DNA of 64,000 bases from positions 32,001-96,000 of the IMG/VR virus record IMGVR_UViG_3300043821_000026. The stretch is one strand, 5' to 3'. Below the pieces are notes generated by a model. It had not been told where the DNA came from. It did not search any database and saw only the letters and a list, made by a program, of their open reading frames with translations. How positions within the stretch are numbered: the first letter of the stretch is position 1; each line of letters starts with the position of its first letter. The translations under genes were made by a program, and so were the position numbers. This DNA is from a virus (lineage: Duplodnaviria > Caudoviricetes). Shown here piece after piece: positions 8,321 to 21,079 of this stretch.

Positions 8321-9331
8321 ATGGTAGAAGATTTAACTAATAATGAAAAGAAAATAGATATTAAAATTTTTAAAGACATGAAATCCCGTGTCAACAAATA
8401 TATAGAACAAGGCGGAAAACCAATTGATGAAAGAAGAATTTATTTAGATTATGACACAAAAGCAGAATATGTATTATATTACAAATATAAAAATATGCTT
8501 GTTAGATATAACGCATATGTACAAAAATATAAAAAAGAACCAGAAAGTTTACAAATATCAGTTAATGCTAGAGCTATTGATAGCTTAAGTATTAAAATAC
8601 CTGTAAGTACATTTTTAGATATGAAGGCTAGAGTTGATGCTTATACTGGAAAATTAAATGATACCACTCATGTATATCTTGATATGACAACAATGTATGA
8701 TTATATAAACTATTCAACATATAAATATATGTTATTTAAATACAATGCTTTTATAAAAAAATATGGTAGACAACCTAATTATATAACAACAGCAATAGAA
8801 TCTACACAACCAAATACTACAGTAACAACTAAAAATTGTTATTCAAGTCCTAGATGGTTCTCTGGTACAGAAATGCGCCAAAATACATTGTGGTATTGCG
8901 GAGTAAATATTACACAACAAATATTAAGAGAAATAACAGGTGTATATTATTCAGAATCTGTATTAGCTAAATATTTAGGAACTACTAAAAGTGGTACTGG
9001 TCCAGATATGATTATATCTGTATTAAAGAAAATTTTAACTAATAATGGATATACTGTAAAACGAGCTGAATGGTTATATAAAAGTGATATAAGCTGGGAT
9101 GAAATAGGTAAGGCTATAGAAAACCCTAAAGTAGGATTAGGACTTCATGATTTGTATAGAATGCGCTGGGGCCATTATGAATATCCTGTTAAGCTATGTA
9201 AATCATCAGAAGTCATTACAATAGCAAATAGTTTATCTGGTGGATATTTAGAGGCTAGAAGTTTTTCAACAATGTTAAAATATATAAATGGTCAATCAGG
9301 TAAATCTATTCTAATTGTCGAAGTAGAATAA
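8321..9331 (+). CDS. Endolysin: pseudomurein endoisopeptidase-like (pseudomurein-binding repeats + C39-like cysteine peptidase, PeiR-like)
   Basis: About four N-terminal PMBR-like repeats (FKDMKSRVNKYIEQGGKP; YKYMLFKYNAFIKKYGRQPNYI), a Thr-rich linker, then QNTLWYCG (Cys), WGHY (His) and IANSL. Confidence 0.8.
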   Translation: MVEDLTNNEKKIDIKIFKDMKSRVNKYIEQGGKPIDERRIYLDYDTKAEYVLYYKYKNMLVRYNAYVQKYKKEPESLQISVNARAIDSLSIKIPVSTFLDMKARVDAYTGKLNDTTHVYLDMTTMYDYINYSTYKYMLFKYNAFIKKYGRQPNYITTAIESTQPNTTVTTKNCYSSPRWFSGTEMRQNTLWYCGVNITQQILREITGVYYSESVLAKYLGTTKSGTGPDMIISVLKKILTNNGYTVKRAEWLYKSDISWDEIGKAIENPKVGLGLHDLYRMRWGHYEYPVKLCKSSEVITIANSLSGGYLEARSFSTMLKYINGQSGKSILIVEVE

Positions 9332-9340
9332 GTGATATAA

Positions 9341-10606
9341 ATGGCAGATGTAGCTAATAAACAGAAAATAAATTTAGGTACTGTTAAGGGGGATGATGGT
9401 AACATATACGTTCCTACCTTTGATGGTACAAGACTTAATTTTATTAAAAAACATAATCCACCTGAAGAAACAATTCAAGGTATGGATTTAAAAGGTCAAC
9501 AAGGAAATCAAGGTATTCAGGGTAACCCACCTGCTATTCATGGTACTTTAGATTCTCCATCTAAATTACCTACTTCTAATAATAAAGATGGTGATATTTA
9601 TTTAGTCAATGATGGGGTTACTCAAGGAATAGTATATCAATGGTATGAAAACGCATGGCATAATGTAGGTAATATTGTAGGACCACAAGGTGAACAAGGA
9701 CCTATGGGTACTAGTTATGCATTAGATAATTTATTTACATTGTCTGTAGATGATAACGGTGATTTGTATGTAATATATCCTACAGATAGTAAATTAACTG
9801 ATAAAAATTTTAGCTTCACTAAAGATGGCGATTTGTATTTTATATTAGACCCAGAAAATGGAGATTCCGCTACAAAATTATTTTTAGGTAACGCTAAAGG
9901 ACCTAAAGGTGATACTGGTATATCTATTAAAGCAGATAATTTTTATTATTTCACGATGGATTCAGATGGTAATTTATATGTTGTAGATGATAACGCTAAT
10001 GATTTTGGATACGACCCAGCAACAGGTAATTTGTATAAAAATTATACAGGAACTAATCCTATACTTATAGGAAATGTTCGTGGACCTAAAGGTGATACAG
10101 GAAATAGTTTAATTCATGCTGCAATTGTTACAGAATTACCAGACCCAAATTCGGCTGATATTAGTACTTTATATTTTATTAAAAATAGTGCTTCATCAGG
10201 AACAGACCAATATGATGAATATATTCTTGTTGATAATAACGGAACTAAAACATTTGAACAATTAGGAACTAAACAAATAGATTTGAGTAATTATTTTACT
10301 AAAACTGAAATAAATACTATGTTAGGTAGTTATTTATTAAAAACAGATAATATATCTGATAGTAAAATATTAGTTACTACAGAAAATTATGGTGCTGGAT
10401 TAACTCAAAACCAATTTAATGCTTTTGTATCTTCAGATATATTAACAGTTAAATCTACATTAACAAATAAAGCGAATAGTAGTGATGTTTATACAAAAAC
10501 ACAAGTAGATGCTATGTCTAGTGGTAAGGCTGATAAAACTGATGTATATTCTAAGGCTGAGATTGATGCTTTACTTGGTACAGCTAATGATATTATAACA
10601 GGGTGA
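9341..10606 (+). CDS. Tail fibre/adaptor protein with short collagen-like repeats (module 1 adaptor)
   Basis: GQQGNQGIQG, GPQGEQGP and GPKGDTG x2; DLSNYFTKTEI and KADKTDVYSKAEID fibre-shaft motifs. Confidence 0.7.
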   Translation: MADVANKQKINLGTVKGDDGNIYVPTFDGTRLNFIKKHNPPEETIQGMDLKGQQGNQGIQGNPPAIHGTLDSPSKLPTSNNKDGDIYLVNDGVTQGIVYQWYENAWHNVGNIVGPQGEQGPMGTSYALDNLFTLSVDDNGDLYVIYPTDSKLTDKNFSFTKDGDLYFILDPENGDSATKLFLGNAKGPKGDTGISIKADNFYYFTMDSDGNLYVVDDNANDFGYDPATGNLYKNYTGTNPILIGNVRGPKGDTGNSLIHAAIVTELPDPNSADISTLYFIKNSASSGTDQYDEYILVDNNGTKTFEQLGTKQIDLSNYFTKTEINTMLGSYLLKTDNISDSKILVTTENYGAGLTQNQFNAFVSSDILTVKSTLTNKANSSDVYTKTQVDAMSSGKADKTDVYSKAEIDALLGTANDIITG

Positions 10607-10612
10607 TTAATT

Positions 10613-11059
10613 ATGAGTTTAATGACTAATTTAACAACACTTAGAGAAACAATAGTAACAAACCTACAAAACAAGGGAATAACCGAAGCAAGTAATAGTA
10701 TGGGATTAACAACCTTAGCAAACAAGATTACAAGCATTAGTACTGGAGAAACATACACAATAAGCACAATTACACCTTTTACAACAACAGGATTCATTGA
10801 CGAACAAATTCCTATTACAATTACTGCAGTGGATAGTAAAAATAAACCTGCTGCTGTTAAAATTTATCTTAAAATTGATAATATTGTACAAGAAAAAACC
10901 GTGCAAACCTTAAAAAATGGTAGGGCTGTATTAAATTTTTCTTCAAATGTAGTAGGAGAACATACTATTCAAGCATTCATAAATGAAACAAGTGTTAGTT
11001 CTCCTATTACTATTACGTTAAGTAATCCTAATTATTATGTTAATCCTGCAGGGAAGTGA
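10613..11059 (+). CDS. N-terminal part of receptor-binding adhesin (docking motif + Ig-like domain), split from 11037..12821 by a +1 G
   Basis: Ends YYVNPAGK*; removing one G at 11051-11053 gives YYVNPAGSDSNAGTSSTAPFKT, a contiguous beta-helix start motif. Confidence 0.7.
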   Translation: MSLMTNLTTLRETIVTNLQNKGITEASNSMGLTTLANKITSISTGETYTISTITPFTTTGFIDEQIPITITAVDSKNKPAAVKIYLKIDNIVQEKTVQTLKNGRAVLNFSSNVVGEHTIQAFINETSVSSPITITLSNPNYYVNPAGK

Positions 11060-12821
11060 TAGTAATGCTGGTACAAGCAGTACTGCACCATTTAAGACTT
11101 TGAATAAAGCAATTAGTACTGCAACAGATAAGAGTAGTATTTATGTTCAAGCAGGATACTATGTAGGAACAAGTAATACTGTATTAAGTATATCAAAAAA
11201 TTTAACAATTTACTGTAATGGTTCTGCACTATTTGATGGGGAGAATGTTAGACAATCCGGATTCACAGTAGCAAGTGGTTATAGTGTTACTTTGAATGGT
11301 TTAAAGTTTATTAATGGTTCAGGTAATGCTGGTGCTGTAACTGTGAATGAAAATTGTAGTATAATAAATTGTAATTTCACAAACAATGAGAAAAGTACTT
11401 CAACCGATGATGCGACAGGTTGGGGTGGTGCTGTTTATTGTATTGGTTCAAATAATTATATTTTTAATTCCGATTTTTATAGTAACAAAGCTTATAATGG
11501 TGGGGCTATTTATAACAATTCCTCAAATACTGTGACTGATTGTACATTTTCAGGTAATAATGCTTCAACTCATGGTGGGGCTATTTGGAACGATTCCTCA
11601 AATATTGTGACTGATTGTACATTTTCAGGTAATAATGCTTCAACTGATGGTGGGGCTATTTATAACAATTCCTCAAATAATACTGTGACTGATTGTACAT
11701 TTTCAAGTAATAATGCTTCAAGGAATGGTGGGGGTATTTATAACAGTTCCTCAAATAATACTGTGACTGATTGTACATTTTCAGGTAATAATGCTTCAAC
11801 TGATGGTGGGGCTATTTATAACAGTTCCTCAAATATTGTGACTGATTGTACATTTTCAGGTAATAATGCTTCAACTGATGGTGGGGCTATTTATAACAAT
11901 TCCTCAAATAATACTGTGACTGATTGTACATTTTCAAGTAATAATGCTTCAAGTAGTGGTGGGGGTATTTGTAACAATTCCTCAAATAATACTGTGACTG
12001 ATTGTACATTTTCAGGTAATAATGCTTCAGCTTATGGTGGGGCTATTTATAACGATTCCTCAAATATTGTGACTGATTGTACATTCAGTAATAATGCTTC
12101 AAATAAGGGTGGGGGTATTTGTAACAATTTCTCAAATAATACTGTGACTGATTGTACATTTTCAGGTAATAATGCTTCAAGTAATGGTGGGGGTATTTGT
12201 AACAATTTCTCAAATAATACTGTGACTGATTGTACATTTAGTAATAATGCTTCAACTGATGGTGGGGCTATTTATAACAATTTCGCAAATAATATTGTGA
12301 CTGATTGTACATTTTCAGGTAATAATGCTTCAAGTAATGGTGGGGGTATTTATATTGATGATGATAATGATAATGTTAAAAATTGCAGTTTCAAAAACAA
12401 TACACCAACAAATCTTTATATTATAGAAGAAACTTATTCTGGTACAGTAACAAACTGTTACTGGGGAACAGACACACCAACAACAAGTGATTATGGAACA
12501 ATCAATAATTATACCGTAACAAATAATGCAACTAGTAAAACCGTGTACAACATAATAAAATACACTAAAGCCTCTGCAACAACAGGCACAAACATACCAT
12601 TAACCTTTAAATGTTTAGATTGCAATGGTAATCCTTTAAGTAACATGGAAATAGTACTTAAAAATGGTACAACCACATTAGCAACACTCACAACGGATAA
12701 TTATGGAATAGCAACTTATACAGTAACAGTAACAGCAAACATGAGTTTAACAATCACAAATACTGCAACAAATAATTATAATTCATGTACAAGCGAAACA
12801 AGAACAATAACAGTGGCATAA
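11037..12821 (+). CDS. C-terminal part of beta-helix (pectin-lyase-like) adhesin / receptor-binding protein with terminal Ig-like domain
   Basis: GGAIY-type beta-helix repeats, NCYWG cap, C-terminal Ig-like domain. Confidence 0.75.
   Translation: MLILQGSDSNAGTSSTAPFKTLNKAISTATDKSSIYVQAGYYVGTSNTVLSISKNLTIYCNGSALFDGENVRQSGFTVASGYSVTLNGLKFINGSGNAGAVTVNENCSIINCNFTNNEKSTSTDDATGWGGAVYCIGSNNYIFNSDFYSNKAYNGGAIYNNSSNTVTDCTFSGNNASTHGGAIWNDSSNIVTDCTFSGNNASTDGGAIYNNSSNNTVTDCTFSSNNASRNGGGIYNSSSNNTVTDCTFSGNNASTDGGAIYNSSSNIVTDCTFSGNNASTDGGAIYNNSSNNTVTDCTFSSNNASSSGGGICNNSSNNTVTDCTFSGNNASAYGGAIYNDSSNIVTDCTFSNNASNKGGGICNNFSNNTVTDCTFSGNNASSNGGGICNNFSNNTVTDCTFSNNASTDGGAIYNNFANNIVTDCTFSGNNASSNGGGIYIDDDNDNVKNCSFKNNTPTNLYIIEETYSGTVTNCYWGTDTPTTSDYGTINNYTVTNNATSKTVYNIIKYTKASATTGTNIPLTFKCLDCNGNPLSNMEIVLKNGTTTLATLTTDNYGIATYTVTVTANMSLTITNTATNNYNSCTSETRTITVA
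11499..12353 (+). repeat. Coding tandem repeat, 11 units of 72-78 bp
   Basis: Eleven copies of gtgactgattgtacatt...aataatgcttca encoding VTDCTFS(G/S)NNASxxGG(A/G)I. Confidence 0.95.
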
Positions 12822-12829
12822 AATATGTA

Positions 12830-12996
12830 CAAAAATTACAAACCATTACATGATTTGTTGTATCTCTTGTATGTGTTCCATTATAATCAATCCATCTATC
12901 TGTTGAACTTGTGAAATCATCATAGAATATATAATCTTTAACTGTTACACTCACAGTATCAGAATAATCATAGGTAGCTACACCACTACTGTTCAT
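12830..12996 (-). pseudogene. Inverted relic of an adhesin/RBP gene (Ig-like end fused to start of a lectin-like domain)
   Basis: Minus strand reads NSSGVATYDYSDTVSVTVKDYIFYDDFTSSTDRW, resembling + strand RBP motifs (GIATY; YYILTDDASTD). Confidence 0.5.
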
Positions 12997-13089
12997 TAAA
13001 CTTTCATATAATGAACAAAAAATCTGTTATTTTATTAAGGATAAAATACAGAATAATATAGAAATAATAACTAATGATATAGTGATAAC

Positions 13090-13386
13090 ATGGTAGAACA
13101 AAAACAGTTTTTAGGAAATTTTAAAGTAGATATATCAAGCAAAGCCGATAAGGCTGATGTATATACTAAAACAGAAATAAATACAATGATGAATCATACA
13201 GGTGCTAATAGTAATACTTTAGTTCCTTTTATTAATATTAATAGTAAAGGTGTATTAAGTGTTAAATATGAATTATTTAATAATACTGATATACTAACCT
13301 TTAATACAATTATAGATAATGATACAACATATTCACCTAGTGATATGGAAGATATACCTTTATTAAATACAGTAATGGGAGAATAA
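13090..13386 (+). CDS. Small fibre adaptor protein (module 2 adaptor)
   Basis: KADKADVYTKTEIN motif shared with 9341..10606. Confidence 0.6.
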   Translation: MVEQKQFLGNFKVDISSKADKADVYTKTEINTMMNHTGANSNTLVPFININSKGVLSVKYELFNNTDILTFNTIIDNDTTYSPSDMEDIPLLNTVMGE

Positions 13387-13388
13387 AA

Positions 13389-14237
13389 ATGACTTTAAAA
13401 CAAAAAATAGTAAATTTACAAAATAAAATGGCAGATAATTTAGCACGAAAAGGAATATCTGACTTAGAAAAAACAGTAGTTGATAGTGACAATAATGTAA
13501 CTTCTAAAGGAAGTAGTTTAATAGATATGGTCAATCAAATACCAAATACATGGGAATATATTAAATTTAATTTTACAGGTGATTTACCAGAAATAGTTGA
13601 TACAGGTTCAGATGTGATTAGTCAATATATTATTGGATTAAATAATTTAACTATTTCAAGTTCAGATATTAAATTTCCAGTACTACAATTTTGTACTAAT
13701 TCAGTATTTAAAAGTACTGCTATATTATGTGAATGTCCAGAATTAATATATGCTAAAAATATTAAATTTAGCGATGGAAAAGCAGCTGGAAATATTATAG
13801 GAAGTTGTGGTAAATTAGAATATGTTGAAGATATTGATACCTCCTTATTAGTAGACTATGAGGGAAGTGGTATAACAGATAATGCAGTTTTAAAAAGAAT
13901 TTCAAATCTTATATTACCAAATGCCGCATTATGTCAGTTTTATATATCAGCATGTCCTTTGTTAGAAACTATTGAAGGCATTGATTTATCATCTACAGAT
14001 TTTAATGGTTGGGTACCTACTACTTGTCCTGCACTTACTACTTTAAAAGTTTCCGGTCTTCATTTAGATACAAATTTAAGTACATTAACAACATTAAATC
14101 ATGAAAGTTTAGTTTATATAATTAATAATGCAAAAACAGTTACTGGGAAAACATTAACTTTAGGAGCAGTTAATTTAGCTAAACTTACAGATGCAGAAAA
14201 AAAAGTTGCTACAGATAAAGGTTGGACCTTAGCTTAA
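13389..14237 (+). CDS. Receptor-binding protein with leucine-rich-repeat-like C-terminus
   Basis: N-terminal docking motif (NLARKGI...SLIDMVNQI); C..L..(I/L) LRR-like repeats; phage-type ending TLTLGAVNLAKLTDAEKKVATDKGWTLA. Confidence 0.6.
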   Translation: MTLKQKIVNLQNKMADNLARKGISDLEKTVVDSDNNVTSKGSSLIDMVNQIPNTWEYIKFNFTGDLPEIVDTGSDVISQYIIGLNNLTISSSDIKFPVLQFCTNSVFKSTAILCECPELIYAKNIKFSDGKAAGNIIGSCGKLEYVEDIDTSLLVDYEGSGITDNAVLKRISNLILPNAALCQFYISACPLLETIEGIDLSSTDFNGWVPTTCPALTTLKVSGLHLDTNLSTLTTLNHESLVYIINNAKTVTGKTLTLGAVNLAKLTDAEKKVATDKGWTLA

Positions 14238-14238
14238 G

Positions 14239-15753
14239 GTGATTATTATGGATTGGAATCTTCCAGAGATTCTAGATGTTGAATTTTTAACTGACGAAGA
14301 AGTTGAAGAATTAATTAAAATTAAAGCAAACATTGATGATATTTATACTAAATTAGAAACAGATAATAAAATTATCGAAAAGTTACAACCATATATAACT
14401 TCTGATGCTATCGATACTAAATACATAAGTAAGGATTTGTTGAATACCAAATTAGATTTATATTTATTAAAAAGTGAAGCTGGGATTACCTATGTTAATA
14501 ATTCACAACTTACTGGTGCTTTAAATTCATATATGAATACGGTAGATTTATATGATAATTTTTACAATAAAGGACGAACTGATGGTAAGATAGCAACTTT
14601 AGAGGGTACTATTAATAATAAACTAAGTACTTGTATGAAAATATCTGATGCTTATTCTGCATTTGTTACTATGGAGCAATATACAGGTCAAAGCCTTGTT
14701 GGAATAAATAACTTAGAAAAAAAAATAATATATCTTTTCGAAAATAATAATATTTTATTTAATCAATATATGGATTCAACTGTATTATCAAGTTCAGAAT
14801 GGACCGTTACAAATTGTACTGCAACTGATTATTCTAGTAATGGATATGGAGAAGTTACTATTGGAACATCAAAAACAGTTGGTTCTTTAATTATGAATAA
14901 TTTTATTAAGGTAGATAATAATTGTTCTATTAGTATTAATACATATAATCCATTTAACATTATTTACAATAAAGGACGAACTGATGGTAAGATAGCAACT
15001 TTAGAGGGTACTATTAATAATAAACTAAGTACTTGTATGAAAATATCTGATGCTTATTCTGCATTTGTTACTATGGAGCAATATACAGGTCAAAGCCTTG
15101 TTGGAATAAATAACTTAGAAAAAAAAATAATATATCTTTTCGAAAATAATAATATTTTATTTAATCAATATATGGATTCAACTGTATTATCAAGTTCAGA
15201 ATGGACCGTTACAAATTGTACTGCAACTGATTATTCTAGTAATGGATATGGAGAAGTTACTATTGGAACATCAAAAACAGTTGGTTCTTTAATTATGAAT
15301 AATTTTATTAAGGTAGATAATAATTGTTCTATTAGTATTAATACATATAATCCATTTAACATTATTACAGATACTAATAAAATACTTGCAGTATCTCCTA
15401 CTTATTCATCAGGAACAAGTATTACATATAAATCTTCAGATGGTACAGTTATATCAACAGCACAAGATAGTACTGCAAGTAAGCCATCAATTATTATTAT
15501 AACCATTATAAATAATAATATTACTTGTAATATTGATGGTAAGAAAATAACATTAACAAATGATGATATAATTAATAATTTTACAAATATCAAACTTTCA
15601 GTTACTAGTAATGGAACAAGTGCGTTTTATATTAATGATATTTTTACTATATCAAAATTAACCACTCCACAAACAGATATAGATTCATTACAATCAAGAG
15701 TAACTGCCCTCGAACAAGGTCTTACAACTTTAGATACCTACTTAAAGAGCTAA
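14239..15753 (+). CDS. Fibre/adaptor protein with lectin-like beta-sandwich and internal duplication (module 3 adaptor)
   Basis: KANIDDIYTKLETD shaft motif; 134-aa exact duplication; C-terminal coiled coil. ATG at 14248 after AGGTGA is the likelier start. Confidence 0.6.
   Translation: MIIMDWNLPEILDVEFLTDEEVEELIKIKANIDDIYTKLETDNKIIEKLQPYITSDAIDTKYISKDLLNTKLDLYLLKSEAGITYVNNSQLTGALNSYMNTVDLYDNFYNKGRTDGKIATLEGTINNKLSTCMKISDAYSAFVTMEQYTGQSLVGINNLEKKIIYLFENNNILFNQYMDSTVLSSSEWTVTNCTATDYSSNGYGEVTIGTSKTVGSLIMNNFIKVDNNCSISINTYNPFNIIYNKGRTDGKIATLEGTINNKLSTCMKISDAYSAFVTMEQYTGQSLVGINNLEKKIIYLFENNNILFNQYMDSTVLSSSEWTVTNCTATDYSSNGYGEVTIGTSKTVGSLIMNNFIKVDNNCSISINTYNPFNIITDTNKILAVSPTYSSGTSITYKSSDGTVISTAQDSTASKPSIIIITIINNNITCNIDGKKITLTNDDIINNFTNIKLSVTSNGTSAFYINDIFTISKLTTPQTDIDSLQSRVTALEQGLTTLDTYLKS
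14561..15364 (+). repeat. Exact in-frame 402-bp tandem duplication
   Basis: 14561-14962 and 14963-15364 appear identical (tttacaataaaggacgaac...catttaacatta). Confidence 0.95.
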
Positions 15754-15756
15754 AAA

Positions 15757-16635
15757 ATGACAGATATAAACACAGTAGCGACTGACCTTAAGTCAGTCAG
15801 AGATAAACTTGCTAATAAACTTACAGAATGTGGGGTTAATGTAAGTAGTGCCGATGGGCCTACGACATTAGCAAAGAAGATATCTTTTATTGGTACATCA
15901 GAAACTGAAATAGATAGTACTGATATTTATAATGGCAGTACCGATATTCAACAAAATAAAATAACTTTTAGAAATTATTTAGCAAACCAAGTAACTAAAC
16001 AAGGAACTACGGTATCTGATACTGATTCTATTTTAGATTAATTAATAAAATCGAAAACAAAACACCTCCTAATTATTATATTTTAACAGATGATGCTTCT
16101 ACTGATATGACAAGTAATTATGAATCTAGCGTAGGATTAAGAAATAGTGGTACTGGTACTATAACTCATAATAGTAATGGATACTATGTATTAGCTAACA
16201 CTAAAGCAAGTTCTATGAGTTATATACCAATTCAAGGTATTACATGGAAAGCAAAAATTTATTATTGAATTTGATAGCTATTTTCCAACAAGTAATTCAA
16301 ATGTAAGTACAGGATTCGTGGTTTGTCAAAGTAGTACAGATTGGTGTAGTCATTACGCTAATGATATGAATCTTTATTATTGGGGAACAATGTTAAGTAA
16401 TGTTTTAACTAAGTCATCAGTTAATTATACTTCACTTATAGCTGATTGGACGCATAATAAATATGTTATAGACAACGGATGGTTTAGTATGGTATTAACA
16501 AAACAAAGTGGAGAGAGTATTTATAGTACATCACAACAATTAGATAGTAGATTTAATACAACGACTAATGATTATGGTTTTCCGATTTTATGGGCTGCTA
16601 ATAGTTATTATATTAAGAATATTAAAATCTATTAA
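15757..16635 (+). pseudogene. Receptor-binding protein (two docking motifs + ConA/lectin-like domain) broken by two compensating frameshifts
   Basis: -1 at ~16038 (gattaatt instead of gatttaatt) and +1 at ~16245 join ORF 15757..16041, an intermediate frame (LINKIENKTPPNYYILTDD...) and ORF 16318..16635 into ~292 aa. Confidence 0.7.
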
Positions 16636-16677
16636 AAATTTTTATATATATATACTCAAAAATACATATTAATTAAC

Positions 16678-17082
16678 ATGAATCAAAAATTAGATAAAAC
16701 TCAACATTCAGTATACAAACTAACATATCATTTAGTATTAGTAACCAAATATAGGAGAAAAGTAATTGATACACCTATCTATAATAGATTAATGAATATT
16801 TTTCAAAATATTGGTTTTAAATATAATGTTGTAGTTTTAGAATCTAATTTTGAATCAGACCATATACATATATTGTTTAAAAGCTTTCCTAATATTAATC
16901 TACAAAAATTTGTTAATTCATATAAAAGTGCAAGTAGTAGATTAATTAAAAAAGAATATCCAAAAATAAAAAGAAAGTTGTGGAAATCTCAATTTTGGAA
17001 AAGAGGGTATTTCATAACAATTACTGGTGGGGCAAGTATCGAAACTATAAAACAATACATAGAAAAACAACAAAGGAGGTGA
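16678..17082 (+). CDS. tnpA: IS200-type Y1 HUH transposase
   Basis: YHLVLVTKYRRKV, HUH motif DHIHIL, FWKRGYF, catalytic Tyr in IKQYIEKQ. Confidence 0.95.
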   Translation: MNQKLDKTQHSVYKLTYHLVLVTKYRRKVIDTPIYNRLMNIFQNIGFKYNVVVLESNFESDHIHILFKSFPNINLQKFVNSYKSASSRLIKKEYPKIKRKLWKSQFWKRGYFITITGGASIETIKQYIEKQQRR

Positions 17083-17086
17083 GATA

Positions 17087-18226
17087 TTGAAAATAGTGAA
17101 TAAAGGAATTAAAGTTAGAATATATCCTAATAAAAAACAAAGAGAATTATTTCAACAAAACTTTGGTTGTTCTAGATTGGTATACAATCAAATATTAGAT
17201 AAATTAAACAATTTATATACTCAATATCCAAGAATGTATAAATTAAATATTAAACTAATCAATACATTGTTGAATCAAATTAAAGTAGAGTTTCCTTTTT
17301 TAAAAGAAGTTGAATCTACTAGCCTTCAACAAGCTAGTCGTGATTTGTTAAAATCTTATCAAATGTTTTTTAAAAACCCTAAATCAAATTTTCCTAAATT
17401 CCATACTAGAAAAAATACTAGATTAAGTTTCAGACAAACTGTAACTAAAAATTTAGTACAAGGAAATCATTTAAAAATAAGAAAATATGGTTTAATTAGA
17501 TTTGGAACTAGTAAGGAATATATTAACTTACTCAATTCAGAAGATATTAAAATTAATAATATAACAATTAGTTGTGATAATTTTAAATACTTTGCTATAA
17601 TCAATATTGAAGCTCCTGTTAATAAATTCAAATTAACTGGTATTAAAAAAGGCTTTGACTTAAATAGTAATAGAAATGGTTTTCTTGTTAGCAATACTGG
17701 TGAAAAATATCAATTTGATATTAATCATGAAATCCAAATGATTAAACAATTGAATAAATCATTAAGTACTAAGAAGAAAGGAAGTCGGAGTTTTAAGTAC
17801 TATACTAAAAGATTGAATAAATGGTATTGCAAAATCAAGAATAAATTAAATGATTTTGCACAAAAACTATCAACTAGTTTAGTTAAAGAATGTGATACTA
17901 TTGTAATTGAAAATAATTGGGTTAATATTCTTAAATCATTGACTAAAGGTGAACAAAATATTCGTTTTCCTTTAAGTAGATTTAAAGATATGATTCAATA
18001 TAAATTTGATTGGCATAAACCTGAAGCGACTGGTTTAGTTGAGGTTAACCCTGCGTATACTAGTCAAATTTGCCATGTGTGTGGTAGTATTAATTCTGTA
18101 CTAACATGTGATAATAGAGAATGGGTTTGTGTTAATTGTCAATCTGTACTTGACAGAGATATTAATGCAGCAATAAACATTCTGAACCGTTGGGACGACG
18201 GGGATTGCCTTTCAGCTCGAAGTTAG
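17087..18226 (+). CDS. tnpB: RNA-guided endonuclease TnpB
   Basis: KVRIYPN..Q, FGCSRLVYN, RuvC-I GFDLN, RuvC-II IVIEN, zinc finger CHVCG/CVNC, RuvC-III DRDINAAINIL. Confidence 0.95.
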   Translation: MKIVNKGIKVRIYPNKKQRELFQQNFGCSRLVYNQILDKLNNLYTQYPRMYKLNIKLINTLLNQIKVEFPFLKEVESTSLQQASRDLLKSYQMFFKNPKSNFPKFHTRKNTRLSFRQTVTKNLVQGNHLKIRKYGLIRFGTSKEYINLLNSEDIKINNITISCDNFKYFAIINIEAPVNKFKLTGIKKGFDLNSNRNGFLVSNTGEKYQFDINHEIQMIKQLNKSLSTKKKGSRSFKYYTKRLNKWYCKIKNKLNDFAQKLSTSLVKECDTIVIENNWVNILKSLTKGEQNIRFPLSRFKDMIQYKFDWHKPEATGLVEVNPAYTSQICHVCGSINSVLTCDNREWVCVNCQSVLDRDINAAINILNRWDDGDCLSARS

Positions 18227-18280
18227 GAATCCACCACTTCTATAAGTGGTGGTAGTTCAAGCTTATATAATACAAAAATT
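18100..18280 (+). ncRNA. Putative TnpB omega (reRNA) guide scaffold spanning the IS right end
   Basis: GC-rich structured 3' end of tnpB plus right-end hairpin; guide inferred as flanking gcttatataatacaaaaatt. 5' boundary approximate. Confidence 0.55.
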
Positions 18281-18309
18281 AGATTTTATTTAAAAGAGGT
18301 AGTATATAA

Positions 18310-19062
18310 ATGACTGAATTGAATAAATTAAAAATAGCTAATATAAAAGGCCCACAAGGTAATGGAGCAGTAATTCGAGGTTCTTTAACAAATATCACAG
18401 AGCTACCTACAGAAACTCCAGAAGGAGCAATTTATGCAGTTGGTGACACTAATATAATTTATATTTATAAAAACAAAAAATGGGTACAATTGTATAAAAT
18501 TTTAGGACATGTTGATACAGTTGAAACATTACCAACTGGTACAGAAAATGCTATTTATACAGTAGGAACAGATAATAATGTGTATATCTTTACTACTACA
18601 TGGGAATTATTAGGAAAATTATTAGGAAATAAAGCATCAGTTAGTGAATTACCAAACTTACAAGAAGGGGATTTATATCTTGTAGGTGATAATAATACAT
18701 TATATAGTTATAGTAAAAGTACATGGATTAATTGTGGAAATATTCAAGGCAAACAAGGGGAACAAGGAATACAAGGGATATCTAAACTTAATTTATTAAT
18801 TGTTTCAAAACTTCCAGATGTAGGGCAAGAGGATACAGAATACTTTATTAAATCAACTGATGGTTCTGGAGATAACTTATATGATGAATATGTTTGGATT
18901 CATCCTGAAGGTGAAAGTGCTAAATTTGAAAAGATTGGACAATCTAAAATTGATTTTTCAAACTTTTATACTAAAACAGAAAGTGATAATAAATATGCTA
19001 CAATATCACAGTTACAAACTATTGAAAACAAAATAAATTCAATAATATCAAGAATAGGATAA
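18310..19062 (+). CDS. Fibre adaptor with collagen-like motifs (module 4 adaptor), paralogue of 9341..10606
   Basis: KGPQG, GKQGEQGIQG, three LP..G.IY.VG repeats, YDEY...FEKIG..KIDFSNFYTKTESD as in module 1. Confidence 0.7.
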   Translation: MTELNKLKIANIKGPQGNGAVIRGSLTNITELPTETPEGAIYAVGDTNIIYIYKNKKWVQLYKILGHVDTVETLPTGTENAIYTVGTDNNVYIFTTTWELLGKLLGNKASVSELPNLQEGDLYLVGDNNTLYSYSKSTWINCGNIQGKQGEQGIQGISKLNLLIVSKLPDVGQEDTEYFIKSTDGSGDNLYDEYVWIHPEGESAKFEKIGQSKIDFSNFYTKTESDNKYATISQLQTIENKINSIISRIG

Positions 19063-19063
19063 T

Positions 19064-21079
19064 ATGACAATTAGAAGCGAACTAATATCACAACTACAAA
19101 ACAAAGGAATGAATGTAGACACATTATTAAATGGAGAAGATAAACAAAATGTTAGTTTATTTAAATTAGTTGATTTAGTCGCTAAAATTCCATCTAAATA
19201 TAATATAGAAATTTCTAAAACTCCTGAAGTTTTATACTCTCCTGATACTATAGATAATTATAAACTAGTACATTTAGAAGAGTTGATACAAAATCTACAA
19301 ATAAGATTAAGTAATACTTTATTAATAAAAGGTATTACTGATATTACTTACATGACTTCATTAACAAAATTAATAGAAAAAATACAATATATTGAACTAG
19401 CTTTACCAGTTACTATAGAAATAGTTACAGCTCCTCAATCTTTAAATATTAATGAACAAAGTACTATATCTGCTAAACTAAGTTCAGATACAACTATATT
19501 ATCTGATAAAACTGTAGTACTTAAATGTGATAATGTTAAAATAGGACCACAAACACAAAAAACAAATAGCAAAGGTGTTGCTACATTCGTAATTTCAAGC
19601 ACAGATGCAGGAACTTTTAAATATACAGTAGAATTTACATCTATAAACGAATATGCTAGTCAAACATTAGATATTAATATTACATATAAAAAATTAACTA
19701 CTACTATTATACAATCTGTACCTGATACAATTCAAGCTTATACTGATTTTACAATTACAGCTACATTAGGACAAAAAATAAATGATGGAACTATTACTAT
19801 ACATATTGGAAATGATAAATATACTGGTACGCCAATTGATGGAGTATTTAGTAAAACAATAACAAAAGAAGTATATAGCGTTGGTACATATAGTATTTAC
19901 GTTGAATGGAGTGGTGATGATACTTATCAACAACTTCAAACAATTAGTAAAACAGTTTCAATTCAAAAAAGTAATAGTTCAATAAACTTTAATCTTAAAA
20001 ATTCAACAATATCATTAGCAAATCAAGCAAGTACAACAATTACTGCAAGTGGAATTGGAGAAATTTATTTATACGATAAGATAAATGGTACTAATACACT
20101 TATTACTCATGCACCAAATTCTGTAAGTGTAACTCGAAGTTTTACAGATGGTACGCATACTATAACAGCTACATCTTCTGGAAATCAATCATATAATGGA
20201 GATACAGCTACAGGAACTATTTATGCTTATACATCGATACCAGTAAATACCTCTCTATCTCCATCACAAGGAAGTATTACTCTTGGTCAATCTATAACAC
20301 TATACGCATCTGTAAGCCCTTCAGTATTAGGTACTGTAACATTTAAAGATAATCAAAATAGACTTAATCAAACTGTAAGTCTATCTAATGGTAATGCTAC
20401 AATTTCATACACACCAGCTAACACTAGTAATAATACATTTTATGCACAATTCAATAATTCGGGTGTATATTACGCCAATAATCAAGCAAATACTTCAATT
20501 AGTATTAACGAACCAATATCATATGCAAAACCTACTTTAAATATTACTTATAATAGTAATGATTTATATTATAAAAAAACATGCACTTTTACTATTACAT
20601 CAAATGTTAGTGGTTTATCATATAGTGTTGATGGTAGTAATATTAATGGTAATACATTTAGTAAAACTTTCTCTTCTGCTGGAAATATTACAATTAACGT
20701 AAAACAAGTAGGAAGTATACAAACTGGAAATACTATATATACCGGAGGTAGTGCCTCTATTACCATAACAATTAATAAATTACCTATATATATAACACCT
20801 ACATCAGATGATTCATGGGTAACAAGTTCTGTAGATAAATATGGTTGGAATTACTATATAAGAGCTACTACTATAGATGGTGCTCCTTTAAGTGGATTAA
20901 CATTCTTTTGGGTATTTAGTAGTGGACATTCTGGCTATGTAACTTGTGATACAAATGGATATATAGGTATTGGATTAAAGGGTACTACTAATCATACATA
21001 TAACTTTGATATAAGTAGAGATGAAGATAATAATTATCTTTATACTAGCTTACATAGACAAATAACAATTAAATATTAA
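19064..21079 (+). CDS. Receptor-binding/adhesin protein with Ig-like repeats
   Basis: Two N-terminal docking motifs (LQNKGM; LLIKGITD...SLTKLIEKI) followed by several Ig-like domains. Confidence 0.65.
   Translation: MTIRSELISQLQNKGMNVDTLLNGEDKQNVSLFKLVDLVAKIPSKYNIEISKTPEVLYSPDTIDNYKLVHLEELIQNLQIRLSNTLLIKGITDITYMTSLTKLIEKIQYIELALPVTIEIVTAPQSLNINEQSTISAKLSSDTTILSDKTVVLKCDNVKIGPQTQKTNSKGVATFVISSTDAGTFKYTVEFTSINEYASQTLDINITYKKLTTTIIQSVPDTIQAYTDFTITATLGQKINDGTITIHIGNDKYTGTPIDGVFSKTITKEVYSVGTYSIYVEWSGDDTYQQLQTISKTVSIQKSNSSINFNLKNSTISLANQASTTITASGIGEIYLYDKINGTNTLITHAPNSVSVTRSFTDGTHTITATSSGNQSYNGDTATGTIYAYTSIPVNTSLSPSQGSITLGQSITLYASVSPSVLGTVTFKDNQNRLNQTVSLSNGNATISYTPANTSNNTFYAQFNNSGVYYANNQANTSISINEPISYAKPTLNITYNSNDLYYKKTCTFTITSNVSGLSYSVDGSNINGNTFSKTFSSAGNITINVKQVGSIQTGNTIYTGGSASITITINKLPIYITPTSDDSWVTSSVDKYGWNYYIRATTIDGAPLSGLTFFWVFSSGHSGYVTCDTNGYIGIGLKGTTNHTYNFDISRDEDNNYLYTSLHRQITIKY

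What the first reader, a model, noticed from the sequence alone, without database searches (positions are those of the whole stretch)
9341..21079. Four repeated two-gene adaptor + receptor-binding modules with a shared docking motif and unrelated tips
Seen: pairs 9341/10613, 13090/13389, 14239/15757 and 18310/19064. Each first gene carries a Y(T/S)K.E(I/T/S)(D/N) shaft motif, two also with collagen triplets. Each second gene starts with a helical L..(K/C)G(I/M/V)...L..(L/M)..(K/Q)I motif (doubled in modules 3 and 4), followed by a different C-terminus: beta-helix, LRR-like, lectin-like or Ig-like. Inference: a plug-and-socket, multi-tip adsorption apparatus whose tips are swapped as cassettes to change host range.
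Basis: partly seen in the sequence, partly recalled or inferred. Interest (0 to 1): 0.7.

Follow-up and report, generated by a model that had tools for sequence, protein, structure and literature searches.

The report
Four fibre-plus-tip gene sets, methanogen virus
A large virus of a methane-producing archaeon carries four side-by-side pairs of "fibre shaft" and "binding tip" genes, joined by a short junction signature that thousands of bacterial viruses also use, so separately made tips probably plug onto fibre ends and move between viruses as cassettes.

Summary
Four tightly coupled gene pairs (gaps of 1-6 nt) lie at 9341-21079, downstream of the head, sheath and baseplate genes of a 138.5-kb virus. 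A pseudomurein-binding lysin marks its host as a methanogen.

The second genes share a ~45-residue N-terminal helix-KG-helix module. No Pfam family covers it, yet it is very widespread: 11,084 protein clusters match, nearly always at residue 1. In 24 of 24 other viral loci the gene directly upstream ends in a short conserved helix. Some phages chain three such proteins.

The conserved partner is the extreme C-terminal helix of the first gene.

Cassette exchange is shown directly. The B1 gene is 85-89% identical in DNA to a gene in an otherwise unrelated 50-kb virus.

- Physical docking, presence in virions and any host-range effect remain inferred.
- Two of the four tips are frameshifted in this assembly.
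- An IS200/IS605 element sits in the array.

Earlier notes of this scan (e1-1094208, e1-5341871) describe similar fibre/tip junctions on other DNA. This is a new variant of a known kind.

The parts
9341..10606 (+). A1, fibre shaft protein (421 aa). It has collagen-like Gly-X-Y runs, three Y(T/S)K beta-layer motifs and ends ...YSKAEIDALLGTANDIITG*.
   Evidence: ORF and sequence. PHROG tail-fibre families (phrog_3904, 8.6e-14). Its end scores 11.9 bits with the external A-end profile, against a maximum of 3.9 for 93 other ORF ends. Relatives P0058 and P0060 share the same last residues.
10613..12821 (+). B1, tip gene. It is split into 10613-11059 and 11037-12821 by one extra G (GGG at 11051-11053). 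Order of parts: N-terminal module (10613-10765), Big_1, an 11-unit PMP-type beta-helix (repeats 11495-12354), Ig-like end.
   Evidence: Pfam. Frames. Intact homologues P0112 and P0113 read ...NPAGSDSN... across the break. DNA alignment shows the extra G. Repeat array. 85-89% nucleotide identity to L121.
12822..13089 (.). 268-nt gap between set 1 and set 2, the only sizeable non-coding gap apart from the IS site. Not analysed further.
   Evidence: ORF map.
13090..13386 (+). A2, small first gene (98 aa). Its YTKTEIN motif lies near the N-terminus. Its end (...DIPLLNTVMGE*) does not match the external A-end profile.
   Evidence: A-end score 0.5 bits.
13389..14237 (+). B2, intact tip (282 aa). Order of parts: N-terminal module with a long loop, a low-confidence linker, an LRR-like solenoid, then a C-terminal cap ...LTLGAVNLAKLTDAEKKVATDKGWTLA.
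   Evidence: Homologues with LRR_5, 74-79% identical over the last ~50 residues. AF2 model (pLDDT 74; helices 3-20 and 44-49; residues 121-282 confident). Top fold matches are all LRR chains, but weak.
14239..15753 (+). A3, first gene of set 3 (504 aa). It has YTKLETD near the N-terminus, a perfect in-frame 402-bp tandem duplication at 14561-15366, and a coiled-coil-like end ...LQSRVTALEQGLTTLDTYLKS*.
   Evidence: A-end score 4.2 bits (marginal).
15757..16635 (+). B3, broken tip gene. Piece 15757-16041 holds two N-terminal modules. The middle piece lies in another frame (~16036-16268). The C-terminal piece (16261-16635) is probably a concanavalin-like jelly roll. Breaks lie near 16037-16041 (-1) and at the A5 run 16253-16257 (+1).
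   Evidence: Three-frame translation. DNA. The external-only B profile hits it at E 8e-8. Atlas lead.
16678..18226 (+). IS200/IS605 element between sets 3 and 4: tnpA at 16678-17082 and tnpB at 17087-18226.
   Evidence: Pfam Y1_Tnp 2.7e-41; OrfB_IS605, HTH_OrfB_IS605 and Cas12f1-like_TNB.
18310..19062 (+). A4, fibre shaft protein (250 aa) and paralogue of A1. It has Gly-X-Y runs and YTKTESD, and ends ...QLQTIENKINSIISRIG*.
   Evidence: BLASTP against A1, E 1e-20. PHROG tail fibre 4.1e-19. A-end score 8.8 bits.
19064..21079 (+). B4, intact tip (671 aa). It has two N-terminal modules (19064-19210 and 19265-19390), then Big_1 and three Big_3_5 Ig-like domains.

Best explanation
The region is the distal fibre cluster of a contractile-tailed virus of a pseudomurein-walled methanogen. 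It encodes four parallel two-gene sets.

The first gene of each set makes a fibrous, presumably trimeric protein. A1 and A4 are collagen-like with alpha/beta coiled-coil segments. These proteins end in a short amphipathic helix.

The second gene starts 1-6 nt later. It makes a separate adhesin-like tip that begins with a ~45-residue module: helix, Lys-Gly-(Val/Ile) turn, loop, helix.

I infer that this module binds the C-terminal helix of the protein encoded just upstream, so the tip is mounted non-covalently on the fibre end. The same end-plus-start junction is used by thousands of tailed viruses of bacteria. In some phages it links three proteins in series.

Because the junction is conserved and the cargo is not, whole tip genes can be exchanged between viruses. 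This is shown for B1.

Shown: the gene order, both signatures, their spread, their co-occurrence and the cassette transfer. Inferred: the physical contact, the stoichiometry, virion incorporation and receptor binding.
For: Context:
- Major head, sheath and baseplate wedge genes lie upstream on the same strand.
- A PMBR plus Pei-like peptidase lies at 8321-9331.
- The window is part of a 138.5-kb IMG/VR record estimated 95% complete.

The module is real and portable:
- Leave-one-out tests support it.
- A profile built only from other phages picks B3 (8e-8) and B1 (1e-6) as the top two hits in the six-frame genome.
- Profile A4 finds 11,084 representatives of 50%-identity clusters at E<=1e-3 and 2,226 at E<=1e-10. 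In nearly all of the top 150 the match starts at residue 1 or 2.
- Cargo is diverse and no Pfam family covers the module.

The junction:
- In 23 of 23 IMG/VR loci plus L121, the upstream ORF ends -14 to +18 nt from the tip's start. It ends with [LIV]G.[IV][ENQ]..L..[IV].
- In leave-cluster-out scoring, 20 of 24 such ends reach 5.2 bits or more, against 0 of 18 control ends.
- A1, A4 and A3 are the three best of 97 ORF ends in this genome.
- The pairs are in different reading frames, or overlap as ATGA, so they are separate proteins and not read-through products.
- Adaptor proteins with the module at the N-terminus and the helix at the C-terminus sit between two such genes in L059, L119, L114 and L118.

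Cassette transfer:
- L121 positions 10041-11812 match window 10653-12821 at 85-89% nucleotide identity. The flanking genes are unrelated or only ~30% identical in protein.
- L121 is a complete 50-kb genome with a single A-B pair.
Against: - No structural or biochemical evidence of contact exists.
- The single-sequence model of a tandem-module protein was useless (pLDDT 31.5).
- The A-end profile finds nothing between the modules of tandem-module proteins, so there is no 'fusion' support.
- B2 and B4 match the external-only module profile only weakly (E about 2). The window-versus-LRR-family profile comparison is modest (P 0.0013).
- A2's end does not match the A-end profile and A3's match is marginal.
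- B1 and B3 are frameshifted in this assembly.
- The external pairs are phylogenetically clustered: 17 clusters, most reached through LRR proteins. The 24/24 count therefore overstates independence.
Confidence: 0.6

Rival explanations
1. Synteny only. The N-terminal module anchors tips to some other virion part, such as the baseplate or another fibre protein. The upstream helix is merely the usual end of fibre genes that happen to precede tip genes.
For: Fibre genes and tip genes are commonly adjacent in tail modules. Many fibre proteins end in coiled-coil-like helices. No contact has been demonstrated. A2's end lacks the signature yet B2 is intact.
Against: - Upstream proteins range from 44 to 697 aa and are otherwise unrelated, yet they share the terminal helix.
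- Control LRR genes without the module lack it.
- Adaptor proteins carry both elements and sit in series.
- The tight coupling of -14 to +18 nt holds across genomes of 25-69% G+C.
Confidence: 0.17
2. The array is partly a graveyard. Only sets 2 and 4 are functional. Sets 1 and 3 are decaying paralogues, left over from cassette turnover and disturbed by IS insertion and duplication.
For: - Three frameshifts fall within 6 kb (B1 and B3). About 33 kb of giant ORFs in the same record are uninterrupted.
- If indels fell at random, all three would land in that stretch with probability of about (6/39)^3 = 0.004.
- There is a perfect 402-bp duplication in A3 and an IS200/IS605 next to B3.
Against: - The breaks are single-base changes in short homopolymer runs (GG to GGG, an A5 run). 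The two in B3 compensate each other.
- They could therefore be assembly or population artefacts in a hypervariable region, or slippage variants.
- Coding potential is fully kept in all pieces.
- Reads were not available.
Confidence: 0.4
3. The second genes are not virion parts. They are accessory adhesin-like 'moron' proteins made in the infected cell, like host adhesin-like proteins or BspA surface proteins. The N-terminal module would then serve export or oligomerisation.
For: The cargo domains (PMP beta-helix, Big_3_5, BspA-type LRR) are typical of cell-surface adhesins of Methanobacteriales and gut bacteria.
Against: - The genes sit inside the morphogenesis block, on the same strand and translationally coupled to fibre-type genes.
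- The module is charged and amphipathic, not signal-peptide-like.
- It occurs in tandem copies.
- The same arrangement sits in the tail modules of small phages.
Confidence: 0.07
4. Tip choice is switched within one genome by DNA rearrangement (invertible segment or shufflon), as in the Mu/P1 tail-fibre G segments.
For: There are several alternative tips in one locus.
Against: - No long inverted repeats bracket the cassettes. The best pair is 38 nt at 74%.
- All genes lie on one strand.
- Each tip has its own shaft gene and its own start codon.
- No recombinase was seen in the array other than the IS transposase.
Confidence: 0.03

Closest known systems
Anchor-branch receptor-binding systems with a conserved N-terminal anchor on variable tips: Klebsiella phage depolymerases of KP32/KP34 type, E. 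coli phage G7C gp66/gp63.1, CBA120 tailspikes (from my own knowledge of the literature, not tested here)
   Same: A short conserved N-terminal part sits on otherwise unrelated binding domains. There are several tips per virion, and tips are exchanged horizontally.
   Different: Those systems dock through T4 gp10-like or other beta-rich domains, or through short peptides of other sequence. Here the module is a ~45-residue helix-KG-helix unit with no Pfam family and no match in PDB sequences. Its partner seems to be a terminal helix of a separately encoded shaft. The host is an archaeon.
T-even phage distal fibre gp37 with the separately encoded tip adhesin gp38, as in Salmonella phage S16 (my own knowledge)
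   Same: The adhesin gene lies directly downstream of the fibre gene. The adhesin's N-terminal part attaches to the fibre's distal end, and its C-terminal part is variable and determines the receptor.
   Different: No sequence relation was found (Pfam and PHROGs). The cargo here is LRR, Ig or beta-helix rather than a polyglycine sandwich. Here there are four sets rather than one.
Lactococcal phage TP901-1/Tuc2009 baseplate, BppU holding BppL trimers (my own knowledge)
   Same: A holder protein and a separately encoded receptor-binding protein are joined through the latter's N-terminal helical segment.
   Different: The sequence family is different, and those are siphovirus baseplate proteins rather than fibre ends.
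Beta-layer (alpha/beta coiled-coil) segments of trimeric fibres, e.g. prophage hyaluronidase HylP1 (PDB 2C3F); Hartmann et al. 2016, PMC4786415
   Same: That paper lists HylP1 residues 69-99, which include ...ADKETVYTKAESKQE, as canonical beta-layers.
   Different: It is a structural repeat of the shaft, not a docking element. Trimer formation by A1-A4 was not tested.
BspA-type leucine-rich-repeat proteins of uncultured gut phages (Pfam LRR_5 / DUF285); earlier scan note e1-1094208
   Same: B2 shares both termini with this family. The N-terminal modules aligned with it come from such LRR_5/DUF285 proteins. The last ~50 residues are 74-79% identical. LRR_5 is the commonest cargo of the module, in 36 of 84 representatives.
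   Different: B2 itself gets no Pfam LRR hit. It lies in an archaeal virus of 25% G+C.
Adhesin-like proteins of Methanobacteriales (Big_3_5, PMP/beta-helix architectures; e.g. PMC11532034, listed but not read)
   Same: B1 and B4 are built from the domain types said to be typical of these host surface proteins (Pfam).
   Different: They are encoded in a viral tail module and carry the viral N-terminal module. Descent from host genes was not tested. The named top hits for the B1 beta-helix are bacterial, and the two closest hits carry no source name and look viral.

Membership tests
Widespread 'terminal helix / N-terminal helix-KG-helix' two-gene junction of tailed viruses (unnamed; defined here) | The second protein starts with the ~45-residue module | tested here: met
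   With an external-only profile: B3 8e-8, B1 1e-6, and B4 and B2 at E about 2. All four are linked by the window profile in leave-one-out tests.
Widespread 'terminal helix / N-terminal helix-KG-helix' two-gene junction of tailed viruses (unnamed; defined here) | The upstream protein ends with [LIV]G.[IV][ENQ]..L..[IV], within about 20 nt of the next start | tested here: inconclusive
   Gaps are 1-6 nt for all four sets. Profile scores: A1 11.9, A4 8.8, A3 4.2 and A2 0.5 bits, against a background maximum of 3.9. Met for two sets, marginal for one, not met for one.
Widespread 'terminal helix / N-terminal helix-KG-helix' two-gene junction of tailed viruses (unnamed; defined here) | The two elements bind each other | not testable with these tools
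   No multimer prediction was available. The proxy with a tandem-module protein failed.
Trimeric alpha/beta coiled-coil fibres with beta-layers (HylP1 type) | Sequence motif ...(A/S)D.Y(T/S)K.E.D... within heptad-like flanks | tested here: met
   Seven copies in A1-A4. The motif is listed for 2C3F in PMC4786415. Match to 7o9v at E 0.048.
Trimeric alpha/beta coiled-coil fibres with beta-layers (HylP1 type) | Trimeric fibre structure | not testable with these tools
   Only monomer prediction was available.
BspA-type LRR proteins (Pfam LRR_5 / DUF285), for B2 | Pfam LRR_5 or DUF285 match above threshold | tested here: not met
   No Pfam family at E<=0.1 for B2. Homologues sharing its termini do carry LRR_5.
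BspA-type LRR proteins (Pfam LRR_5 / DUF285), for B2 | LRR solenoid fold | tested here: inconclusive
   The AF2 model is confident over residues 121-282. The top Foldseek hits are all LRR chains, but E is 4.5e-3 or weaker and TM about 0.2-0.3.
Anchor-branch RBP systems with a T4 gp10-like docking domain | A gp10-like or other known docking domain in the holder or tip | tested here: not met
   Pfam and PHROGs scans of A1-A4 and B1-B4 found no such family.
Invertible tail-fibre segments (Mu G / P1 C type) | Inverted repeats flanking alternative tips, plus an invertase | tested here: not met
   No suitable inverted repeats. No invertase was seen; the only recombination genes are IS200/IS605 tnpA and tnpB.
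IS200/IS605 | Y1 transposase TnpA together with TnpB (OrfB_IS605 plus zinc-ribbon TNB domain) | tested here: met
   Pfam Y1_Tnp 2.7e-41; HTH_OrfB_IS605, OrfB_IS605 and Cas12f1-like_TNB. The element ends were not mapped.
Viruses of pseudomurein-walled methanogens | Pseudomurein-binding repeat or Pei-type endoisopeptidase | tested here: met
   Pfam PMBR 4.6e-12 and phrog_37889 'pseudomurein endoisopeptidase' 5.2e-15 for 8321-9331. The host was not confirmed by spacers or a provirus.

The most novel reading that the evidence does not exclude
The 'terminal helix plus helix-KG-helix' junction is a universal, portable connector. It would be a structural family not yet described, by which thousands of tailed viruses of both bacteria and archaea mount separately encoded tips, and chain adaptor proteins, onto fibre ends. 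The same connector would let tip genes pass between unrelated viruses and even between viruses of the two domains. This methanogen virus, with four sets, would be its most elaborate known user.
Probability: 0.45. Interest if true: 0.75.

Novelty: new variant of a known kind. Interest (0 to 1): 0.6.

Why it matters
- Receptor-binding proteins of uncultured viruses are hard to recognise. A short N-terminal signature that marks more than 11,000 protein clusters as separately mounted fibre tips, plus the matching signature on their holders, would be a practical way to find them and to predict which tip sits on which fibre.
- It would show that viruses of methanogens and of gut bacteria draw on one pool of adsorption parts.
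- It would also give a defined, testable interface for structural work and for ordinary host-range experiments with laboratory phage-host pairs.
- For methanogen virology, four parallel fibre sets built from host-adhesin-type domains suggest how one virus might cope with the variable surfaces of Methanobacteriales.

Tried and rejected
Tool closure:
The contigs of the closest relatives could therefore not be fetched. These include P0055, a 98% identical A1 on a 137.5-kb contig, as well as P0002, P0057 and P0113. Whether B1 and B3 are intact in the sister genome remains unknown.

Searches that found nothing useful:
- Megablast of the region against INPHARED phages: no match.
- tblastn of an LRR homologue there: only generic LRR matches.
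- The search for related loci with A4 and with P0055 in IMG/VR: no relatives.
- Alignments A1 and A4 were too divergent for pattern scans, so no genome contigs or metagenome scan was made.
- PDB sequence search with the module profile: nothing (best E 0.23).
- Three literature searches for this module, and for adhesin or fibre cassettes of Methanobrevibacter viruses, found no description.
- The MSTV1 paper mentions no adhesins, tail fibres or receptor-binding proteins, and its only 'cassette' is a regulatory gene pair. My recollection of a switching fibre there was wrong.

Ideas tested and dropped:
- That natural tandem-module proteins carry an A-end-like helix before each module, which would be 'fusion' evidence: the A-end profile finds nothing there.
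- That AF2 on the 12-module protein P0232 would show the unit fold: pLDDT 31.5, unusable.
- That the module caps the LRR domain: rejected. In B2 it is separated from the LRR by a ~60-residue low-confidence linker, and it occurs on non-LRR cargo and in tandem.
- Read-through or a single split gene: rejected because the frames differ and each tip has its own ATG.
- Programmed frameshift in B1: unlikely. The site is GGG-AAG-TGA with an extra G relative to an intact homologue, not a known shifty stop.

Full report
**What the window is.** The window is bases 32001-96000 of a 138.5-kb IMG/VR virus record that CheckV estimates as 95% complete. Its G+C content is about 25%. Upstream on the same strand lie a major head protein, a tail sheath, and baseplate wedge and baseplate proteins. 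Next come an 11-kb gene rich in Ig-like domains and a 468-aa Big_3_5 protein. Then at 8321-9331 there is a protein with a pseudomurein-binding repeat (Pfam PMBR 4.6e-12) and a Pei-like peptidase (phrog_37889 5.2e-15). Pseudomurein is confined to Methanobacteriales and Methanopyrales (established knowledge). This is therefore a large contractile-tailed virus of a methanogen, and 9341-21079 lies where tail fibres are expected.

There are four gene pairs with stop-to-start gaps of 6, 2, 3 and 1 nt.
- The first-gene motif occurs only in these four ORFs of the whole genome. It is far above chance, at 0.06 expected per proteome shuffle.
- The second-gene N-terminal motif aligns in six copies. In leave-one-gene-out searches of the six-frame genome, the omitted gene is always the best remaining hit: 3e-7, 0.0035, 0.0016 and 0.066.
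  - B1 has a Big_1 domain, a PMP-type beta-helix and an Ig-like end.
  - B4 has Ig-like arrays.
  - B2 has an LRR-like solenoid.
  - B3 probably has a concanavalin-like jelly roll, but this is only a weak lead.

- B1 is split by one extra G. Intact homologues P0112 and P0113 read straight through.
- B3 is split by two compensating single-base shifts.
- A3 has a perfect in-frame 402-bp tandem duplication.
- An IS200/IS605 element (tnpA plus tnpB) sits between sets 3 and 4.
- About 33 kb of giant ORFs in the same record are uninterrupted. The lesions are therefore concentrated in the array. This agrees with scan note e1-5753514.

**The first-gene motif is known and generic.** Relatives of A1 include many fibre proteins with up to about 20 tandem copies of ...KA(N/D)xxDVY(T/S)KxE(V/I)D....
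- Hartmann et al. 2016 (PMC4786415) list the prophage hyaluronidase HylP1 segment, which includes ...ADKETVYTKAESKQE, as canonical beta-layers of a trimeric alpha/beta coiled coil.
- PDB 7o9v holds a similar repeat.
- The motif therefore marks a trimeric shaft, not a socket.
- A1 and A4 are paralogues (E 1e-20). They have short collagen-like runs and hit PHROG tail-fibre families. A2 (98 aa) and A3 are different proteins.

**The second-gene module is the interesting part.** Homologues of B2 are BspA-type LRR proteins of uncultured Caudoviricetes. They share its C-terminal cap, at 74-79% identity over about 50 residues, and most begin with the same kind of N-terminal module.
- I collected 23 such starts from IMG/VR loci. 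They align in register with the window's copies.
- A profile built only from the external sequences picks B3 and B1 as the two best hits in this genome.
- The combined profile finds 11,084 representatives of 50%-identity clusters at E<=1e-3. Nearly all of the top 150 match from residue 1 or 2, and some carry 2, 3 or at least 10 tandem copies.
- No Pfam family covers the module. Cargo is LRR_5/DUF285 in about half of the representatives. Otherwise it is Metallophos, a GDSL lipase, PKD or nothing known.
- No PDB sequence matches, and I found no description in the papers searched.

**The junction.**
- In all 23 loci, and in L121, the ORF directly upstream stops -14 to +18 nt from the tip's start. 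It ends with a short helix of the form [LIV]G.[IV][ENQ]..L..[IV], often followed by G or by nothing.
- Those upstream proteins range from 44 to 697 residues and are otherwise unrelated.
- With leave-cluster-out profiles, 20 of 24 ends score 5.2 bits or more. None of the 18 control ends, taken upstream of LRR genes that lack the module, does so.
- In this genome A1 (11.9 bits), A4 (8.8) and A3 (4.2) are the three best of 97 ORF ends. A2 (0.5) does not match.
- In L059, L119, L114 and L118 a middle protein starts with a module variant and ends with the helix, giving chains of three.
- The two genes are in different frames or overlap as ATGA, so they are separate polypeptides.
- This pattern is what a head-to-tail docking interface would produce. 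It is still inference: no contact was shown, and two attempts to get indirect structural support failed.

**Cassette exchange is shown directly.** L121 comes from a complete 50-kb virus of 34% G+C, with direct terminal repeats. It has one A-B pair.
- Its B gene matches window B1 at 85-89% nucleotide identity from codon 14 to the stop.
- Nothing else in the two genomes is similar at the DNA level beyond two patches of about 55 nt at 80% identity. One of these lies in the YTK-coding end of the shaft genes. The adjacent shaft genes are only about 30% identical in protein.
- The number of beta-helix units differs: 11 here and visibly fewer in the shorter homologues P0112 (603 aa) and P0113 (504 aa).
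- B2 and P0002 share identical ends but different cores.
- No inverted repeats suggest switching within the genome.

**How unusual are four sets?** Of 13 external viral records that carry the module, 10 have one module-bearing gene, two have two (serial chains) and one 184-kb provirus record has three. The sample is small.

**Comparison with what is known.** The principle is established for several bacterial phage systems: a conserved N-terminal anchor on variable tips, tips encoded next to their holder, and horizontal exchange. Examples are anchor-branch depolymerases, gp37/gp38 and BppU/BppL (my own knowledge). Four things appear new:
- this particular junction family;
- its very wide spread without a name;
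- its presence in an archaeal virus, with near-identical pieces shared with bacterial phages;
- the four-fold array.

Earlier notes of this scan, e1-1094208 and e1-5341871, reported similar fibre-plus-tip junctions on other DNA. I therefore class the finding as a new variant of a known kind, with interest 0.6.

Noticed in passing
window 14090-14237 (B2 C-terminus): The last ~50 residues of B2, in a 25% G+C archaeal virus, are 74-79% identical to the C-terminal cap of BspA-type LRR proteins. Those proteins come from phage contigs of 32-69% G+C. The final 33 residues differ at one position from P0003. This suggests recent sharing of parts between viruses of archaea and of bacteria.
   Followed up: partly
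window 14561-15366: A perfect (100%) in-frame 402-bp tandem duplication lies inside A3 and duplicates a 134-residue segment. It is either very recent or an assembly artefact.
   Followed up: partly
window 16678-18226: An IS200/IS605 element (tnpA plus tnpB) lies inside the fibre array, directly after the broken B3. Its ends and target site were not mapped here. Another scan note (e1-5753517) discusses them.
   Followed up: partly
window 11495-12354: The B1 beta-helix is an array of 11 units of 75-78 nt with 89-92% matches. The intact homologues P0112 (603 aa) and P0113 (504 aa) are shorter and carry visibly fewer units. Repeat number therefore varies between related viruses.
   Followed up: partly
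L059 2676-5053; L119 1904-5704; L114 3187-4729; L118 2063-4555: In these bacterial phage loci three consecutive genes form a chain. The first ends ...GN(I/V)(E/N/D)ALLA(A/T)(I/V)*. The second starts with a module variant (…LGL… instead of KGV) and ends ...IE(T/E/A)ALAAI*. The third starts with the canonical module and carries LRR, Metallophos or SGNH-like cargo.
   Followed up: partly
protein P0232 (745 aa): This protein consists almost entirely of at least 10 tandem copies of the module, spaced about 60 residues apart, with no Pfam domain. Its role is unknown.
   Followed up: partly
window 8321-9331: A pseudomurein-binding repeat plus a Pei-like peptidase is encoded between the baseplate/adhesin genes and the fibre sets. 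It may be a virion-associated wall-cutting enzyme rather than, or as well as, an endolysin.
   Followed up: no
window 12754-12996 (- strand) within the 12822-13089 gap: An 80-aa minus-strand ORF overlaps the end of B1 and the only large intergenic gap of the array. Another scan note calls it an inverted adhesin fragment. I did not examine it.
   Followed up: no
window 9341-9400, 18310-18360; L121 9394-9440: The shaft proteins A1, A4, L121-A, P0058 and P0060 share an N-terminal pattern, ...(L/I)xN(I/V)KGxxGxxG, that leads into the collagen-like runs. It may be their own attachment end.
   Followed up: no
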